Positions 39,685 to 64,000 of a DNA stretch of 64,000 nucleotides are shown here, piece by piece; the stretch's first letter is position 1, and each line of letters opens with the position of its first letter. The stretch is from a phage: the sequence record PZ540767.1; one strand, written 5' to 3'. A program made the translations under genes and the position numbers. Under the pieces are notes generated by a model. It saw only the letters and a list, made by a program, of their open reading frames with translations. It ran no database searches and had not been told where the DNA came from.

Positions 39685-41562
39685 CTACTTAAGCCAGGTT
39701 TTCAGTTCATCACTGACTTTCGGATCAAGTCCGAATGCTTTTGGCCCTTTCTTACGAGAGGACATGAAGAACTGGAGTTCCCCTGCTGCATCTTTGGTGT
39801 CAGCACGGTTACCTTTGGCTTTAGTCTCTTTGAAGACACGATACAGCTCTTGTGCCTGCTCTTTGACTGTCATAGCCTTACCTTCTGGTTTAGCTGGAGA
39901 TTCAGCTTTTGTTTCAGGAGTAGTGACTTTGATATCACTGGCTTCACGAATGGACAGGATCAGCTCTGCATCTTCATCAGAGATGCCCAGTTTAGCCCAG
40001 CCTTTCTTAGCTTTCTGTTTGGCAGAGATTAATTCCTCTGCAAACTTCTGGGCAGTAGCCAGATCTTCAGCCAGATAAGCAGCTTCAAATTGCTCCCAAA
40101 GGAGGTCAATTTTAGTCTTCTTGATTTCAGGGGCAATAACTGGGGCAGGTTCTTTCAGATCAGCAGCCAACACTGGCGATACTTTTTCAGTAGGTGCTGC
40201 TTCTGACAGATCAGATTGTTCCAGTGTTTCCTTAACCAGATCTACTTTTACTTCTTCAGCTTTTGCTGTTTCAGTATTTTCGACCTTGGTATAGGTTACA
40301 TTGCTGCCATTGTGACCACCCACTTCAACCAGTTCAGTAATGCCCACATGAGCACCACGCAGAACTTTGTTCAGCAGCTCTTTACCCTCTGGGATAGAAG
40401 AAATAGAGCCACCACTGTTAACGTGGTTACGCAGCGATTCAGGCAGTACAGCAAGGATGTGGTAACCACATACACGCATTTTAGTGCGGCTGTATTCTGG
40501 TACAGCAAAGACGTCTTCAGGACGTACTTTAGCCATCACAGTGACGTTACCAGGGAAGCTGCTGAGATAGCCCAGGGAAGCTACATGGAGGCCATTAGAG
40601 CAGTCCTGACGGCGGTTAGGATCTACCAGACCTGGTTTCATGAAGACATAGGAACCCACATTCTGTTTGATGTTCCCGGAATGAACATCCACGAAAGTTC
40701 CATGCTTCTCTTTGAGACGTTTGTAGATAACGATACAGCCGTCATCTGCAATAGGAAGATCACCATGTTCGATGAACTTCATCAGGTCTTCAGCAGAGTG
40801 ACCACGATCTTTCAGAACAGGTTCCAGACGGTTCAGGAAGTTTACGAAGCCACGGAAATCCTTCAGCTTACTTGCTGCTTTCATCTGAGATGATAGCTTG
40901 TGAGCATGAGGAATCACACTACCTGTCTTGGTGTTGACTGCCACAATGGTATCAGGATCTTCATCCGTGATAGGTTTGTGGAAATCAGGATCATCAACAG
41001 TACTACCTTTGCCTGCAAGCTCGCGCATACGGGCTGTAGCCAGATCGATTTTCTGATCATTGGTGAGTTCTGCTGGTTTGGTTACCTCATTTGCAGGGGC
41101 TTCAACTACTTCTTTCAATGCTTCTAGGGCTTCTTCTGCTTCTACTGCCGCAGATGGAGCTTCCAAAGCATAAGTGAGGTCATCAGCTTCCTCTACATCC
41201 AGAATGGTCTGGCCTGGCTTGATACCCAGTTCCAGTGGCGAGATGTGAGCAACACTCTCATCCACCTTTTCAGGGGATTCAGTGTCGATGAACTTTTTGA
41301 CGAAACTTTTGGCAACACGGAAGAACTTGATAAGTCCCCCAGTGCCTTCTTCAGTTTCTTTGAACTCATTGCGTACCTTGATAGGTTCTGCAATGTCTAC
41401 AACCGCAGAGCCATCCACAGGGATGTACTTTTTGGCTGTTTCGACGATGTTCGGCAAACGAGGATCACCCTGTGCAATGGTCACAGTACTGCCATCCTCT
41501 AAATAGAGGACAGCATTCTGAGCATCGACAGAGATTCCTACGATGGTCACTAGTTTTTTCAT
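39685..41562 (-). CDS. rIIB: rIIB-like protein (by position downstream of rIIA-like gene), 625 aa
   Basis: Start overlaps rIIA-like stop; acidic/Lys-rich C-terminal half; no catalytic motif recognised. Confidence 0.4.
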   Translation of the reverse strand: MKKLVTIVGISVDAQNAVLYLEDGSTVTIAQGDPRLPNIVETAKKYIPVDGSAVVDIAEPIKVRNEFKETEEGTGGLIKFFRVAKSFVKKFIDTESPEKVDESVAHISPLELGIKPGQTILDVEEADDLTYALEAPSAAVEAEEALEALKEVVEAPANEVTKPAELTNDQKIDLATARMRELAGKGSTVDDPDFHKPITDEDPDTIVAVNTKTGSVIPHAHKLSSQMKAASKLKDFRGFVNFLNRLEPVLKDRGHSAEDLMKFIEHGDLPIADDGCIVIYKRLKEKHGTFVDVHSGNIKQNVGSYVFMKPGLVDPNRRQDCSNGLHVASLGYLSSFPGNVTVMAKVRPEDVFAVPEYSRTKMRVCGYHILAVLPESLRNHVNSGGSISSIPEGKELLNKVLRGAHVGITELVEVGGHNGSNVTYTKVENTETAKAEEVKVDLVKETLEQSDLSEAAPTEKVSPVLAADLKEPAPVIAPEIKKTKIDLLWEQFEAAYLAEDLATAQKFAEELISAKQKAKKGWAKLGISDEDAELILSIREASDIKVTTPETKAESPAKPEGKAMTVKEQAQELYRVFKETKAKGNRADTKDAAGELQFFMSSRKKGPKAFGLDPKVSDELKTWLK

Positions 41563-58992: not shown

Positions 58993-59011
58993 CATTGCCC
59001 TGTGGGCAATG
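58993..59011 (-). promoter_or_regulatory. Hairpin promoter candidate (N4 vRNAP-type), instance 1
   Basis: + strand gcaTTCATTgccc-TGT-gggcaatg: 8-bp stem, 3-nt loop; ~60 nt upstream of ATG 58931. Confidence 0.5.
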
Positions 59012-60344: not shown

Positions 60345-60566
60345 TCATTTATTGTCCTGTGGACAATATACCTCCCAATCTGTCCATTTTTGAGCTAGGA
60401 AGCCTTCTACAGTATCTGTGATAGTATGGCCATCAAGAAATCTTACAAGTATTATACTATCCTGGGACAATGTTATATAAGAACCACTATCCCATACTGA
60501 TCTTTTTATCTTAGCCCCTAGTTTCAGCATTAATAATGCTTCTTTAGCAGTCATATAATGTACCAT
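60345..60566 (-). CDS. DUF2829/Tad2-like small protein, copy 1
   Basis: N-terminus 'MTAKEALLMLKLGAKIKRSVW'. Confidence 0.5.
   Translation of the reverse strand: MVHYMTAKEALLMLKLGAKIKRSVWDSGSYITLSQDSIILVRFLDGHTITDTVEGFLAQKWTDWEVYCPQDNK
60350..60368 (-). promoter_or_regulatory. Hairpin promoter candidate, instance 2
   Basis: + strand ataTTCATTtattgtcc-TGT-ggacaata; overlaps 3' end of the preceding small ORF; ~75 nt upstream of ATG 60278. Confidence 0.5.
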
Positions 60567-62192: not shown

Positions 62193-62477
62193 TTAGAACC
62201 AATGTGGGTAATCAGCCATGAACTGGGCTAATTCACGCTCATGCTCACTGATAGCTGTACGCTTACAACGACGTACTTGCTTAGCTGTAGGCTTGGCTGT
62301 AAATGCATACTGGTGCATTGATGAGGACATGGGATTGTTATCCACTACCAATTCAACAGCTACACACCATTGAGCAGGTTGAACCATATCATCAGGGAAA
62401 CCGCTACGTTTAGTGATTTCGTTAACTGCACAAGGGTCAGCAGGTAAGAACATTACGGAGGTTTTAATAACACGCAT
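62193..62477 (-). CDS. Early protein, paralogue B of 'TKPTxKQ(I/V)R' pair (94 aa)
   Basis: 'YAFTAKPTAKQVRRCKRT'. Confidence 0.45.
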   Translation of the reverse strand: MRVIKTSVMFLPADPCAVNEITKRSGFPDDMVQPAQWCVAVELVVDNNPMSSSMHQYAFTAKPTAKQVRRCKRTAISEHERELAQFMADYPHWF

Positions 62478-62745: not shown

Positions 62746-62782
62746 AGGTATATCTCCAATAGATTAAGTGGACACTTCTATT

Positions 62783-62800
62783 CATTGCCTGTAGGCAATG
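62783..62800 (-). promoter_or_regulatory. Hairpin promoter candidate, instance 3
   Basis: + strand cttctaTTCATTgcc-TGTA-ggcaatg; 7-bp stem. Confidence 0.5.
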
Positions 62801-62930
62801 CATGGTCGTAGTACTGTCGCTGTCGCTTCGTACTACTCCCTGTGTAATACCAGTGTTCATTAGAATGGCTTACAGAGACTGTGACTATTAGTTATTATTT
62901 TAAAGGCAACCCGTTAGGGTTGCCTCTATT

Positions 62931-63152
62931 TCAAAACGGAATCTCATCACTGAATCCTGACAGATTCACTGGATAAAACTCATGCCAGTAATAAGACTGA
63001 TCATGAGCCTCAATGGACTCTGCACGGATTTCCTTATACATACCACTGTTACGAACTTCTTGCAGGGCAGCTTCCGCTTCCTCAAGAGTTCCAAAGGTAT
63101 CTACAAAGGTATCTGCATAGAGATCCCCAGGTACAACAGTAAGTAAGAACAT
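62931..63152 (-). CDS. Acidic early protein with SSB-tail-like C-terminus (73 aa)
   Basis: ATG after ggaga RBS; ends '...NLSGFSDEIPF'; first gene after hairpin promoter instance 4. Confidence 0.5.
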   Translation of the reverse strand: MFLLTVVPGDLYADTFVDTFGTLEEAEAALQEVRNSGMYKEIRAESIEAHDQSYYWHEFYPVNLSGFSDEIPF

Positions 63153-63203
63153 AATATGTTCTCCAAATCAATGATAGGACACCATGTCCTATCTCTTCTA
63201 TTC

Positions 63204-63220
63204 ATTCTCCTGTGGAGAAT
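63204..63220 (-). promoter_or_regulatory. Hairpin promoter candidate, instance 4
   Basis: + strand cttctaTTCATTctcc-TGT-ggagaat; 7-bp stem, 3-nt loop; ~52 nt upstream of ATG 63152. Confidence 0.5.
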
Positions 63221-63769
63221 ACCACTGATGCTTAAGTGCAAGAGAACTACGTAGTAGTTCTCCTTGCATACTTCCACTGAAGGTATAGGTACACTTTGTG
63301 TGTAAGATATAGGTTGGTTTAGGTATGAGGTAGGTGGATGATAGGATATAGGGTGAGTATAGAAACATTACCAAAGTAGTAATTTGACACTCAATTCCCA
63401 TCATTTCCTATATAAGTTAACTGGTCACGGTACTGAGTGATTAGGTTATCGGAGTACACCGTTAGGGTGTACGGAGATAACTGGTGATTCTACATAGAAT
63501 AGATCTATAGCTATGTGATGACTGAGGGTGGGTTAGTGAGGGATTGTGTTAAGGGATTGAGTGAGATAGTAACACTGTGTCAAGTGGTTTGTCTTATATC
63601 ATTTTGTTATAAGCATATTCAGAATTGATATATAGATTAATCTGGACTGGTTTATCAGTAACTTACTGTATACAGGAAGTAGTACAGAGTTAGACTGACA
63701 TACGCCAGAGAGTAAGTTTGCCACAAGTTTTGAAACGGAGTAGCGCACCTGTACTGTCATGTAGCACAG

Positions 63770-63801
63770 TGTGTATTGTGTATGATGTGTATTGTGTATG
63801 A
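63770..63801. repeat. Perfect 16-bp tandem duplication (tgtgtattgtgtatga x2)
   Basis: Read directly: 63770-63785 identical to 63786-63801, in non-coding C-poor region. Confidence 0.8.
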
Positions 63802-63840
63802 GTCGAAGACACCGCAACACCGAAGCGAAGCGAGTGTGTA

Positions 63841-63871
63841 AGGTAATTAAATAGCTCACCCGAAGGTGAGC
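63841..63871 (-). terminator. C(UUCG)G tetraloop terminator after the partial gene at window end
   Basis: On - strand: gctcacc-uucg-ggtgagc followed by UAUUUAAUU. Confidence 0.5.
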
Positions 63872-63878
63872 ATATTTA

Positions 63879-64000
63879 TTACTTATCATCATCATCCAGT
63901 GATACACCAAGTGCAGCCAGCTGATTCTCCAGCTGCTTCTTGGTGCTGATGTATTCAGCTTTATCCTTCAGCTCTACCATCTCACTGAAGCGCTTGGCTT
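63879..64000 (-). CDS. 3' end of a minus-strand gene entering from beyond the window
   Basis: Hand-translated open frame ...AKRFSEMVELKDKAEYISTKKQLENQLAALGVSLDDDDK*, stop at 63879-63881. Confidence 0.45.
   Translation of the reverse strand, partial: AKRFSEMVELKDKAEYISTKKQLENQLAALGVSLDDDDK

What the first reader, a model, noticed from the sequence alone, without database searches (positions are those of the whole stretch)
63153..63878. Non-coding C-poor region of ~740 bp with palindrome and a perfect 16-bp tandem duplication
After the last early gene start there is a long stretch without a convincing ORF. On the + strand it is strongly G+T-rich (e.g. 63290-63360), contains a 9-bp-stem palindrome gagaactac-gta-gtagttctc (63242-63262) next to hairpin promoter 4, multiple TAGGT-type repeats, and a perfect tandem 16-mer (63770-63801). 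This could be the early control region and/or lie near a genome terminus or packaging/replication signal.
Basis: seen in the sequence. Interest (0 to 1): 0.45.

Follow-up and report, generated by a model that had tools for sequence, protein, structure and literature searches.

The report
Terminal repeat region of N4-like phage
This C-poor non-coding stretch is where the linear genome of an N4-like Klebsiella phage begins and ends: a ~362-bp terminal repeat with conserved flanking signals and the first early promoter. It is an ordinary but well-preserved example of a known kind of element.

Summary
All four observed features are real and at the stated coordinates. C is 11.5% over 63280-63801, and the GC skew there is the most extreme in the window.

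The window is an Efbeekayvirus, an N4-like Klebsiella phage of the Schitoviridae, about 94% identical to known members. The finding is the gap between the first early gene and the terminator of a right-end gene.

Two relatives have defined ends. FBKp27 has a 349-bp direct terminal repeat (DTR) called by PhageTerm. The HS106 record carries an exact 360-bp repeat at both ends. Both map to the same alignment columns, window 63380-63741. The physical genome ends therefore almost certainly lie inside the finding.

Around the repeat are:
- a virion RNA polymerase (vRNAP) hairpin promoter at 63204-63220;
- a phased TAGG array;
- a two-tier hairpin with compensatory changes at 63445-63481;
- near-invariant blocks next to the left cut;
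- a TGTGTAT heptamer array, of which the "16-mer tandem" is one arrangement;
- a terminator.

The 9-bp palindrome sits in a lineage-specific 52-bp insertion flanked by 7-bp direct repeats. No ORF is conserved and there is no Rfam hit.

This is a new member of a known kind, of modest interest. What the cis-elements do is inferred, not shown.

The parts
62931..63152 (-). First (leftmost) early gene, 73 aa. It is context, just outside the finding. A GGAGA ribosome-binding site lies at 63160-63164 (- strand).
   Evidence: ORF list and sequence. No Pfam or PHROG hit. Weak similarity to N4 gp1: 33% over 39 aa, pairwise E = 3e-4. Conserved in L023, L028 and L030; a different gene occupies this slot in other relatives.
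63173..63193 (-). Hairpin in the 5' leader of the first early transcript, GATAGGACA-TGG-TGTCCTATC on the RNA-like strand.
   Evidence: 9-bp stem and 3-nt loop. It resembles the hairpin just downstream of P1 in N4 (GGACATGTTGTCC) and G7C (GGACATGTCGTCC).
63195..63230 (-). On the template (+) strand it reads ATTCTCC-TGT-GGAGAAT at 63204-63220, with loop centre G at 63212.
   Evidence: One of four hairpins with a CC-TGT-GG core, all on the same strand in the early region: 58993, 60350, 62783 and 63204 (the 62783 one, which has a 4-nt loop, from the sequence). Relatives keep the TGT loop but change the stem to TACCC/GGGTA, GGCC/GGCC or TTGCC/GGCAA. Fold z = -4.5.
63229..63280 (.). Lineage-specific 52-bp insertion. 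It holds a 45-bp imperfect palindrome (stem 63237-63268, core 63242-63262) plus one copy of a 7-bp direct repeat, CCACTGA (63222-63228 and 63274-63280).
   Evidence: Absent from all 10 named relatives. Present only in the window, L023 and L028, and in L028 the loop is inverted (TAC instead of GTA). No match in 50,697 phage records. Direct repeats read from the sequence (family D4).
63281..63365 (+). Conserved G+T-rich block with TAGG/TAGGT units about 10-11 bp apart. In the virion it lies between the left DTR copy and the first promoter.
   Evidence: 80-90% column identity over 18 genomes with no gaps. Motif positions.
63366..63379 (.). Variable-length spacer next to the inferred right-end cut.
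   Evidence: Indels of 0-22 nt among relatives.
63380..63741 (.). Inferred direct terminal repeat, 362 bp. In conventional (early-genes-rightward) orientation the left physical end is at 63741 and the right physical end at 63380.
   Evidence: FBKp27's PhageTerm DTR (record 40,914-41,262; PMC8386662) and HS106's exact 360-bp repeat at both record ends map to the same alignment columns, 63380 and 63741. Metagenome contig L025 starts 5 nt before the 63380 boundary.
63445..63481 (.). Two-tier hairpin inside the DTR: GTTATC-GGA-[7-bp stem]-loop-[stem]-GGA-GATAAC.
   Evidence: DNA fold -9.7 kcal/mol, z = -4.5 on either strand. Three pairs carry changes on both sides (AT>GC, AT>TA, CG>TA). 93.7% of cells are paired, against 60% or less for slid partners. 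0 of 500 shuffles reach the covariation score. Unique in the window.
63469..63588 (.). Near-invariant core of the DTR. It includes the GGGATTG x2 and GAGTGA motifs.
   Evidence: 92-100% column identity across 18 distinct genomes.
63589..63640 (.). A+T-rich variable cassette inside the DTR, present as two alleles among relatives.
   Evidence: Alignment; identity 0.66-0.80.
63689..63769 (.). Conserved block spanning the inferred left-end cut, ...GCCACAAGTTTTGAAACGGAG|(T/G)AGCGCACCTGTACTGTC. Candidate terminase cleavage or recognition site.
   Evidence: 89-100% column identity; boundary mapping.
63770..63801 (+). TGTGTAT heptamer array: four copies arranged as two 16-mers. It lies on the unique right arm, 28 bp outside the DTR.
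   Evidence: Relatives carry 3-5 TGTGTAT copies (plus an occasional near-copy, TGTGTAA) with different spacing in two allele classes. The heptamer occurs only 6 times in 64 kb (11.9 expected), and 4 of those are here.
63802..63844 (.). 43-bp C-containing insertion found only in this window. It contains CGAAG repeats and a GCGAAGC motif.
   Evidence: Gap in all relatives. No match in the phage collection.
63845..63878 (-). Intrinsic terminator of the upstream 'membrane protein' gene (stop codon at 63879-63881): GCTCACC-TTCG-GGTGAGC at 63854-63871.
   Evidence: Terminator scan. 100% conserved across most relatives, with a compensated variant (CCTACTC/GAGTAGG) in BM327-1.2 and L027. Annotated as a terminator in FBKp27.

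Best explanation
The region is the concatemer junction, or terminal region, of a linear N4-like phage genome (genus Efbeekayvirus).

Shown by homology: window 63380-63741 corresponds to the ~350-360-bp direct terminal repeat of close relatives. In the virion this segment would be present at both ends, with the left end at 63741 and the right end at 63380.

In conventional orientation the left arm reads DTR, TAGG array, (in this lineage) a palindromic insertion, vRNAP hairpin promoter, leader hairpin, ribosome-binding site, first early gene. The right arm ends with membrane-protein gene, terminator, TGTGTAT heptamer array, conserved block, DTR.

Inferred mechanism:
1. During packaging, terminase recognises conserved sequences at and beside the two DTR boundaries. 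These are the invariant block across 63741 together with the TGTGTAT array, and the AGTAGTAATTTGACACTC boundary together with the TAGG array. It cuts concatemers there, and the repeat is duplicated as in other short-DTR phages.
2. During infection, the ~530-bp non-coding leader (DTR plus TAGG block) is the first DNA to enter. It brings the first hairpin promoter into the cell, where the co-injected virion RNA polymerase starts early transcription on the + (template) strand.

The strong C-poverty of the + strand is a regional property. It is equally strong in conserved and in variable columns. It is shared, in sign, by the left-end leaders of N4, G7C, LUZ7 and LIT1. Its cause is unknown.
For: Identity of the phage:
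- 13 Efbeekayvirus records match the region.
- The genome is 93-95% identical to them over a 20-kb test stretch.

Termini:
- The HS106 record carries an exact 360-bp repeat at both ends.
- The FBKp27 DTR of 349 bp comes from PhageTerm (PMC8386662).
- Both pairs of boundaries fall on the same alignment columns, window 63380 and 63741.
- An independent metagenome contig starts 5 nt from the 63380 boundary.

Genomic position:
- The region lies between the early genes with hairpin promoters and the genes next to terminase, as in N4.

Conservation and cis-elements:
- Blocks are 92-100% conserved in 18 genomes.
- Hairpin covariation.
- The heptamer array is retained with varying spacing and is depleted elsewhere.
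- No conserved ORF and no RNA family hit.

Promoter:
- The CC-TGT-GG hairpin set and stem covariation.

Literature:
- N4 rules: a 3-nt loop with a central purine on the template strand; the left end is injected first, about 500 bp passively (PMC4496689).
- N4-like DTRs of 390-1,974 bp (PMC3715699; PMC3896407; PMC3670811).

Composition:
-.
Against: - There are no reads or virion DNA for this phage, so its own termini are inferred only by homology.
- The HS106 paper does not say how the record ends were set.
- PhageTerm boundaries can be off by a few nucleotides, and N4 has 3' overhangs and a heterogeneous right end.
- Other public contig ends in the region are scattered (63543, 63612, 63690, about 63820), as expected of arbitrary assembly breaks, so contig ends alone prove little.
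- No terminase binding has been shown for any Schitoviridae.
- The spacer between the TAGG array and the right cut varies by 0-22 nt, which argues against the array measuring the cut position.
- In N4, G7C, LUZ7 and LIT1 the DTR contains annotated early genes, and in N4 and G7C also the first promoter. Here it contains neither.
Confidence: 0.8

Rival explanations
1. The conserved repeats and hairpin mark a replication origin, either alone or overlapping the terminal repeat. In this reading the phased TAGG or heptamer units act as initiator-binding iterons, the A+T-rich cassette at 63589-63640 as an unwinding element, and the two-tier hairpin as a priming or loading structure.
For: - Phased repeats.
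- A covarying hairpin.
- An A+T-rich cassette between invariant blocks.
- The most extreme strand skew in the window.
Against: - No initiator gene or known origin motif has been identified.
- No fold-back structure is predicted at either inferred terminus: z-scores of the four boundary-region folds range from -0.6 to +1.0.
- There is no DNA similarity outside the genus.
- This reading is not exclusive of the DTR reading, which rests on direct evidence from relatives.
Confidence: 0.2
2. The strand bias exists because transcripts that read through from the right-arm gene across the concatemer junction would be C-rich and G-poor. Such RNA is a Rho-loading (rut) tract. It would insulate the early genes from late host-RNA-polymerase transcription.
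For: - On the - (RNA-like) strand, C is 26% and G 11.5% over 522 nt.
- The bias holds equally in variable and conserved columns, as expected of a compositional rather than a motif constraint.
- The region lies directly downstream of a terminator and of a gene on the same strand.
- N4 late transcription uses host RNA polymerase (PMC4496689).
Against: - The transcription class of the upstream gene in this genus is unknown.
- The same sign of skew occurs in the first 150 nt of N4 and G7C, although nothing here shows whether junction read-through also occurs in those phages.
- This reading does not explain the invariant blocks, the heptamer array or the covarying hairpin.
Confidence: 0.1
3. The region encodes a small protein or a non-coding RNA, and the conservation reflects that product.
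For: - Several annotators called short ORFs here in relatives.
- ORFs of 27-40 aa stay open in roughly half of the relatives.
Against: - The 68-aa and 103-aa ORFs are broken in 17 of 17 relatives.
- The short ORFs stay open only where the DNA is nearly invariant, and they fail in the divergent alleles.
- Annotated ORFs differ in strand and position between records.
- No PHROG hit and no Rfam hit at E <= 1.
- No sigma-70-like promoter in 63153-63878.
Confidence: 0.05
4. The 9-bp palindrome (63242-63262) is a functional extra hairpin promoter or terminator controlling the first early gene, rather than a passive insertion.
For: - Very stable hairpin (z = -6.4), 21 bp upstream of the promoter hairpin.
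- The stem is preserved in three independent genomes.
- LUZ7 middle promoters are hairpins with stems of at least 6 bp and 3-4-nt loops (PMC9163698).
Against: - The loop is GTA/TAC, not the TGT shared by the four early promoters.
- Loop orientation is flipped in L028, so no strand-specific loop reading is conserved.
- It is absent from most of the genus, including L030, which carries the same first gene.
- It is flanked by 7-bp direct repeats like an insertion.
- No T-run follows it on either strand.
Confidence: 0.1

Closest known systems
Direct terminal repeat of Klebsiella phage vB_KpP_FBKp27 (genus Efbeekayvirus): 349 bp, PhageTerm (PMC8386662)
   Same: Homologous sequence. Both boundaries fall on the same alignment columns as window 63380 and 63741. 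The flanking terminator, heptamer array, TAGG block and hairpin promoter are the same.
   Different: - The window has three private or lineage-specific indels: a 52-bp palindromic insertion, a 43-bp insertion, and a 17-nt segment at 63416-63432.
- It carries the other allele of the 63589-63640 cassette.
- It has a different first early gene.
- The published paper reports only the length and position of the repeat, not its internal elements.
Coliphage N4 terminal repeats and left-end leader (390-440 bp; Ohmori et al. 1988, as cited in PMC3715699 and PMC3896407)
   Same: - A short DTR at the junction between the right-end genes and the early genes.
- The left end is injected first.
- A C-rich top strand at the extreme left end.
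- A first hairpin promoter followed by a GGACATG-TGTCC leader hairpin and a ribosome-binding site.
   Different: - No DNA similarity.
- N4's DTR contains P1 (about nt 90-102) and most of gene 1, whereas here the DTR is wholly non-coding and the first promoter lies about 160 bp inside the unique region.
- N4, G7C, LUZ7 and LIT1 have a run of 7-9 C about 30-40 nt from the left end, which is absent here.
- The promoter loop is GAA/GGA in N4 and TGT here.
N4 vRNAP hairpin early promoters (PMC4496689)
   Same: - A 5-7-bp stem.
- A 3-nt loop with a central purine (G) on the template strand.
- Located upstream of small early genes at the left end.
- The stem sequence is free to vary as long as pairing is kept.
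   Different: The N4-specific contacts -10G, -8G and +1C are not matched: here T is at -10 and C at -8, and the start base is unknown. Transcription was not tested.
T7 and T3 terminal repeat and concatemer junction (own knowledge; Dunn & Studier 1983 and the Hinkle-laboratory packaging papers)
   Same: - A short exact DTR cut at both boundaries from concatemers.
- Arrays of short (7-bp) repeats associated with the repeat.
- The left end enters first, carrying a promoter-bearing non-coding leader.
   Different: - In T7 the heptamer arrays lie inside the repeat, whereas here the clearest arrays flank it.
- The terminases are not closely related (PMC8386662 places the FBKp27 terminase in its own clade).
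- The resemblance is recalled from memory and was not tested here.

Membership tests
Direct terminal repeat / concatemer junction of a Schitoviridae (N4-like) genome | The same sequence is present at both ends of the virion DNA (2x read coverage, read-end pile-ups or run-off stops at both boundaries). | not testable with these tools
   No reads or virion DNA are available for this phage. The feature is met in relatives: HS106 has an exact 360-bp repeat at both record ends and FBKp27 has a PhageTerm DTR.
Direct terminal repeat / concatemer junction of a Schitoviridae (N4-like) genome | Homology of the candidate segment, including both boundaries, to a repeat defined in a close relative. | tested here: met
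   The boundaries of both relatives map to window 63380 and 63741. The boundary sequences are conserved at 76-100%.
Direct terminal repeat / concatemer junction of a Schitoviridae (N4-like) genome | Position between the right-end genes next to terminase and the leftmost early genes carrying vRNAP hairpin promoters. | tested here: met
   Gene order in FBKp27, HS106 and P184 and in N4. Hairpin promoters.
Direct terminal repeat / concatemer junction of a Schitoviridae (N4-like) genome | Length within the range reported for the family (about 390-1,974 bp). | tested here: inconclusive
   362 bp here (349-360 bp in relatives). This is slightly below the 390-440 bp of N4 and the 397-1,974 bp range listed in PMC3670811, but of the same order.
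N4-type vRNAP hairpin early promoter (for 63204-63220) | Template-strand hairpin with a 5-7-bp stem and a 3-nt loop with a central purine. | tested here: met
   ATTCTCC-TGT-GGAGAAT on the + (template) strand. The rule is from PMC4496689 and PMC3715699.
N4-type vRNAP hairpin early promoter (for 63204-63220) | The N4-specific bases -10G, -8G and +1C. | tested here: not met
   T at -10 and C at -8, by counting from the loop centre. The polymerase is from a different genus, so a different specificity is expected.
N4-type vRNAP hairpin early promoter (for 63204-63220) | Recurrence upstream of early genes on one strand, with stem covariation among relatives. | tested here: met
   Four CC-TGT-GG hairpins, all on the + strand. 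Alternative stems with the same loop appear in relatives.
N4-type vRNAP hairpin early promoter (for 63204-63220) | Transcription initiation by vRNAP at a fixed distance downstream. | not testable with these tools
   Needs 5'-end RNA mapping or in vitro transcription.
vRNAP hairpin promoter (for the palindrome 63242-63262) | The same loop and core as the phage's other early promoters, in a fixed orientation. | tested here: not met
   The loop is GTA, not TGT. The stem is 9-14 bp. The loop is inverted in L028. The element is absent from most of the genus.
Iteron-type replication origin | Repeated initiator sites plus an A+T-rich unwinding element and a cognate initiator. | tested here: inconclusive
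   Repeats and an A+T-rich cassette exist, but no initiator is known and no functional data are available.
Intrinsic terminator (63854-63871) | G+C-rich stem-loop followed by a T-rich tail downstream of a gene. | tested here: met
   7-bp stem (5 G-C pairs), TTCG loop and tail TATTTAATTA on the - strand, 8 nt after the stop codon of the upstream gene. A compensated variant stem occurs in BM327-1.2 and L027.

The most novel reading that the evidence does not exclude
The strand-asymmetric, C-poor non-coding leader and its oriented motif arrays (TAGG units, TGTGTAT heptamers, the covarying two-tier hairpin) could be a dedicated cis-acting system common to Schitoviridae genome ends.

It would do more than mark terminase cuts. 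For example, it could tether or load the leading DNA end so that gyrase can supercoil the first ~500 bp and extrude the hairpin promoter. Alternatively, it could prime replication from the ends.

The same sign of skew at the left ends of N4, G7C, LUZ7 and LIT1 would then be a family-wide signature that, as far as I know, has not been described.
Probability: 0.15. Interest if true: 0.55.

Novelty: new member of a known kind. Interest (0 to 1): 0.3.

Why it matters
- Annotation: knowing that the physical ends lie at about 63380 and 63741 allows this phage, and the many circularly permuted Efbeekayvirus records, to be re-oriented and annotated correctly. That matters for therapeutic Klebsiella phages.
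- Engineering: it marks about 600 bp that should not be disrupted or annotated as genes.
- Candidate targets: the invariant block across the left cut, the TGTGTAT array, the TAGG array and the covarying hairpin are concrete candidates for the still-unknown packaging recognition sites of N4-like terminases.
- N4 biology: these elements also bear on how the leading ~500 bp is handled during vRNAP-dependent genome entry.

None of this overturns current understanding.

Tried and rejected
- Coding potential. ORFs in the region are not conserved and have no PHROG hit. Rejected.
- Known RNA families and tRNAs. None found.
- Sigma-70 promoters. None in 63153-63878 in my scan. The 'promoter' features in the FBKp27 and Halo_KS_7 records amount to an isolated TTGACA with a poor -10, so I treated them as automatic predictions.
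- Fold-back hairpins at the inferred termini, as a test of N4-style hairpin priming. No significant structure at either boundary.
- Sequence similarity of the region to N4 or other genera. Only the 13 Efbeekayvirus records match, even in the sensitive mode. The N4 record holds only one copy of its repeat.
- Contig ends in IMG/VR and metagenome assemblies as independent evidence of termini. Most ends are scattered and uninformative; only L025 starts near the boundary. cp20's 48-bp end overlap looks like an assembly overlap.
- The two window-specific insertions as mobile elements. No second copy in the window (the palindrome is unique) and none in 50,697 phage records. Their origin is unresolved.
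- A G-quadruplex in GGGTGGGTTAGTGAGGG...GGG (63525-63556). Rejected by inspection, because the first G-run is not conserved in half of the relatives.
- The HS106 paper, as a source for how its termini were determined. It does not say.
Full report
**What is there.**
- The palindrome GAGAACTAC-GTA-GTAGTTCTC is at 63242-63262. It is unique in the window, with 0.04 matches expected.
- It extends to a 14-bp bulged stem at 63237-63268. As single-stranded DNA this folds at -11.3 kcal/mol, z = -6.4.
- The perfect tandem TGTGTATTGTGTATGA x2 is at 63770-63801.
- Over 63280-63801 the + strand has 11.5% C and 26.4% G, against window means of 22.3% and 22.0%.
- The resulting skew of 0.39 is the largest of 2,540 equal-sized windows and about twice the largest value before 62,700.
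- TAGGT occurs five times on the + strand and never on the - strand. TAGG units at 63310, 63320, 63331 and 63342 are one helical turn apart.

**Is it non-coding?** Yes.
- The two longest ORFs (68 and 103 aa, - strand) are interrupted or frame-shifted in all 17 aligned relatives.
- The 27-40-aa ORFs stay open only where the DNA itself is almost invariant.
- No ORF hits a PHROG family, nothing matches Rfam at E <= 1, and there are no tRNAs.
- Annotators of related records placed short ORFs here on different strands and at different positions. That is what over-calling in non-coding DNA looks like.

**Which genome.** The region matches only 13 Klebsiella phage records, all placed in or matching the genus Efbeekayvirus, family Schitoviridae (the N4-like phages). 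A 20-kb test stretch is 93-95% identical to them. The finding lies between the start of the leftmost early gene (62931-63152, - strand, with a GGAGA ribosome-binding site) and the stop codon of a small 'membrane protein' gene on the same strand. In relatives, the terminase genes follow that gene. This is the N4 arrangement in a circularly permuted record: early genes at the left end, and right-end genes next to terminase.

**Where the ends are.**
- The HS106 record carries an exact 360-bp repeat at both ends.
- The FBKp27 paper reports a PhageTerm-defined DTR of 349 bp at record positions 40,914-41,262 (PMC8386662).
- In a MAFFT alignment of the window with ten relatives, both boundaries of both repeats fall on the same columns, window 63380 and 63741.
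- The agreement is to the nucleotide at both boundaries. The HS106 paper does not say how its ends were set.
- A metagenome contig (L025) begins 5 nt before the 63380 boundary. Other contig ends in the area are scattered and look like arbitrary assembly breaks.
- I therefore place the terminal repeat of this phage at 63380-63741 (362 bp). In the conventional early-genes-rightward orientation, the left physical end is at 63741 and the right end at 63380. This is inference by homology. No reads are available for this phage.

**Anatomy around the repeat**.
- *Left arm, inward from the repeat.*
  - A variable spacer (63366-63379).
  - The conserved G+T-rich TAGG block (63281-63365, 80-90% identity).
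  - In this lineage only, a 52-bp insertion carrying the palindrome.
  - The hairpin promoter ATTCTCC-TGT-GGAGAAT (63204-63220).
  - A leader hairpin (63173-63193) and the ribosome-binding site.
- *Inside the repeat.*
  - A two-tier hairpin (63445-63481).
  - A 120-bp near-invariant core (63469-63588, 92-100% identity).
  - An A+T-rich cassette with two alleles (63589-63640).
  - A block that is 94-100% conserved up to the left cut.
- *Right arm, outward from the repeat.*
  - Conservation continues across the cut (63742-63769).
  - It leads to the TGTGTAT array (63770-63801).
  - Then comes a 43-bp insertion private to this window, and the conserved terminator (63854-63871).

**The sub-elements.**
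- *Heptamer array.* The '16-mer tandem' is two pairs of TGTGTAT. Relatives keep 3-5 copies. A second, divergent allele class has five copies with quite different spacers. In the whole window the heptamer occurs only six times (11.9 expected), and four of those are in the array. Retention of the unit with free spacing, plus depletion elsewhere, is the pattern of a recognised motif rather than a recent slip.
- *Two-tier hairpin.* It has an invariant outer stem (GTTATC/GATAAC). Its inner stem carries three pairs with changes on both sides. 93.7% of cells are paired, against 60% or less when partners are slid. No shuffle out of 500 reaches the covariation score. It folds equally on either strand (z about -4.5).
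- *Promoter.* It is one of four hairpins with a CC-TGT-GG core, all on the + strand in the early region (58993, 60350, 62783 and 63204). Relatives keep the TGT loop but swap the stem. This fits the N4 rule of a 5-7-bp stem and a 3-nt loop with a central purine on the template strand. It does not fit the N4-specific -10G/-8G contacts (PMC4496689; PMC3715699).
- *Palindrome.*
  - It is absent from all ten named relatives. It is present only in the window and two metagenome-derived genomes.
  - One of those two has the loop inverted, TAC for GTA.
  - It is flanked by 7-bp direct repeats, CCACTGA.
  - It has no match in 50,697 phage records.
  - I read it as a small palindromic insertion whose function, if any, is orientation-independent. 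It does not fit the promoter pattern.

**Composition.**
- The C-poverty is not a by-product of the conserved motifs. C is 13.3% in conserved alignment columns and 13.9% in variable ones, and every relative shows a skew of 0.25-0.37.
- In conventional orientation the top strand is C-rich and G-poor.
- The same sign appears in the first 150 nt of four Schitoviridae with experimentally defined left ends: N4 -0.31, G7C -0.32, LIT1 -0.32 and LUZ7 -0.17. In LUZ7 and LIT1 it extends over about 900 nt.
- The cause is unknown. Candidates are a requirement of the end that is packaged last and ejected first, a Rho-loading tract that insulates the early genes from read-through across the concatemer junction, and a mutational bias of a frequently single-stranded strand.

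**How it most likely works.**
- *Shown.* The homology to defined terminal repeats, the genomic position, the conservation pattern, the hairpin covariation and the promoter family.
- *Inferred, packaging.* Terminase cuts concatemers at the two boundaries, guided by the invariant sequence across 63741 with the TGTGTAT array, and by the boundary sequence at 63380 with the TAGG array. The repeat is duplicated as in other short-DTR phages.
- *Inferred, infection.* About 530 bp of non-coding leader separates the left end from the promoter loop. That is close to the roughly 500 bp said to enter passively in N4 before gyrase and vRNAP act (PMC4496689). The leader would therefore deliver the first promoter to the co-injected polymerase.
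- *Caveat.* The variable spacer between the TAGG block and the right cut argues against that block setting the cut position.
- *Origin.* A replication-origin role for the repeats and the hairpin is not excluded and may coexist.

**Comparison with what is known.**
- The element is a member of the DTR/terminal-region class of N4-like phages, and it is homologous to the repeat already published for FBKp27.
- It differs from N4, G7C, LUZ7 and LIT1 in several ways:
  - the repeat is wholly non-coding;
  - it excludes the first promoter;
  - it lacks the run of 7-9 C found about 30-40 nt from the left end of those four phages;
  - it uses a TGT promoter loop.
- The resemblance to the T7 concatemer junction, with heptamer arrays associated with the repeat, is from memory and was not tested.

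**Verdict.** This is a new member of a known kind. Interest is modest. The internal cis-elements and the family-wide strand bias are, as far as I know, undescribed and give concrete handles for studying N4-type packaging and genome entry, but nothing here is unexpected in kind.

Noticed in passing
window 62775-63234: Early-gene cassette shuffling. A 372-420-bp module holds the terminator 62901-62928, the gene 62931-63152, the leader hairpin and the hairpin promoter. It is bracketed by the repeats CTTCTATTCATT (62775 and 63195) and AATACCA(G/C)TG (62846 and 63218). K17alpha62 and P19-618 (and, from the BLAST coordinates, L029) lack the module and join the 62783-type promoter directly to the TAGG block. 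This suggests recombination between promoter-proximal repeats.
   Followed up: partly
window 58993-59011, 60350-60368, 62783-62801, 63204-63220: Four vRNAP-type hairpins share a CC-TGT-GG core on the + (template) strand, each preceded by (T)TCATT or GCATT. Only five TGT/ACA-loop hairpins with stems of at least 5 bp exist in the 64 kb.
   Followed up: partly
L008 (N4) 1-110; L037 (G7C), L035 (LUZ7), L036 (LIT1) 1-50: All four phages with experimentally defined left ends carry a run of 7-9 C about 29-40 nt from the left terminus, followed by GGT in three of them. Three show a C>G skew of about -0.3 in the first 150 nt; LUZ7 shows -0.17. The predicted Efbeekayvirus left end has the skew but no C-run.
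   Followed up: partly
window 62931-63193 (- strand): The 73-aa product of the first early gene shows weak local similarity to N4 gp1, a cofactor of the middle RNA polymerase (33% over 39 aa, pairwise E = 3e-4). Its leader hairpin GGACATGGTGTCC resembles those downstream of P1 in N4 and G7C.
   Followed up: partly
window 63802-63844: A 43-bp insertion private to this window breaks the local C-poverty. It contains CGAAG-CGAAG and the motif GCGAAGC (63826-63832). From memory, that heptamer is known as an unusually stable DNA mini-hairpin with a GAA loop, like N4 promoter loops. No match in the phage collection.
   Followed up: partly
L028 (ERZ1023888 NODE-8), homologous to window 63242-63262: The palindrome has the same 9-bp arms, but its 3-nt loop is the reverse complement (TAC instead of GTA). 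This would be expected from loop inversion at a hairpin or cruciform.
   Followed up: no
window 63340-63353: GATAGGATATAGGG lies about 27 nt from the inferred right end. The Vibrio N4-like phage JA1 is reported to end at its 3' terminus with GATAGGGGATAG (PMC3670811). This may be coincidence.
   Followed up: no
L026 (OGVH01007638.1): This metagenome contig runs from the heptamer region straight into an Illumina adapter sequence and a poly-A tail. It is an artefact in the public assembly.
   Followed up: no
window 62196-62477 (- strand): The 94-aa early-gene product matches Pfam DUF7279 (E = 3.6e-12).
   Followed up: no
L014 (OY979417.1, K17alpha62): The public record annotates a 10.7-kb 'virion RNA polymerase' pseudogene feature that spans this non-coding junction. 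This is evidently an annotation error.
   Followed up: no
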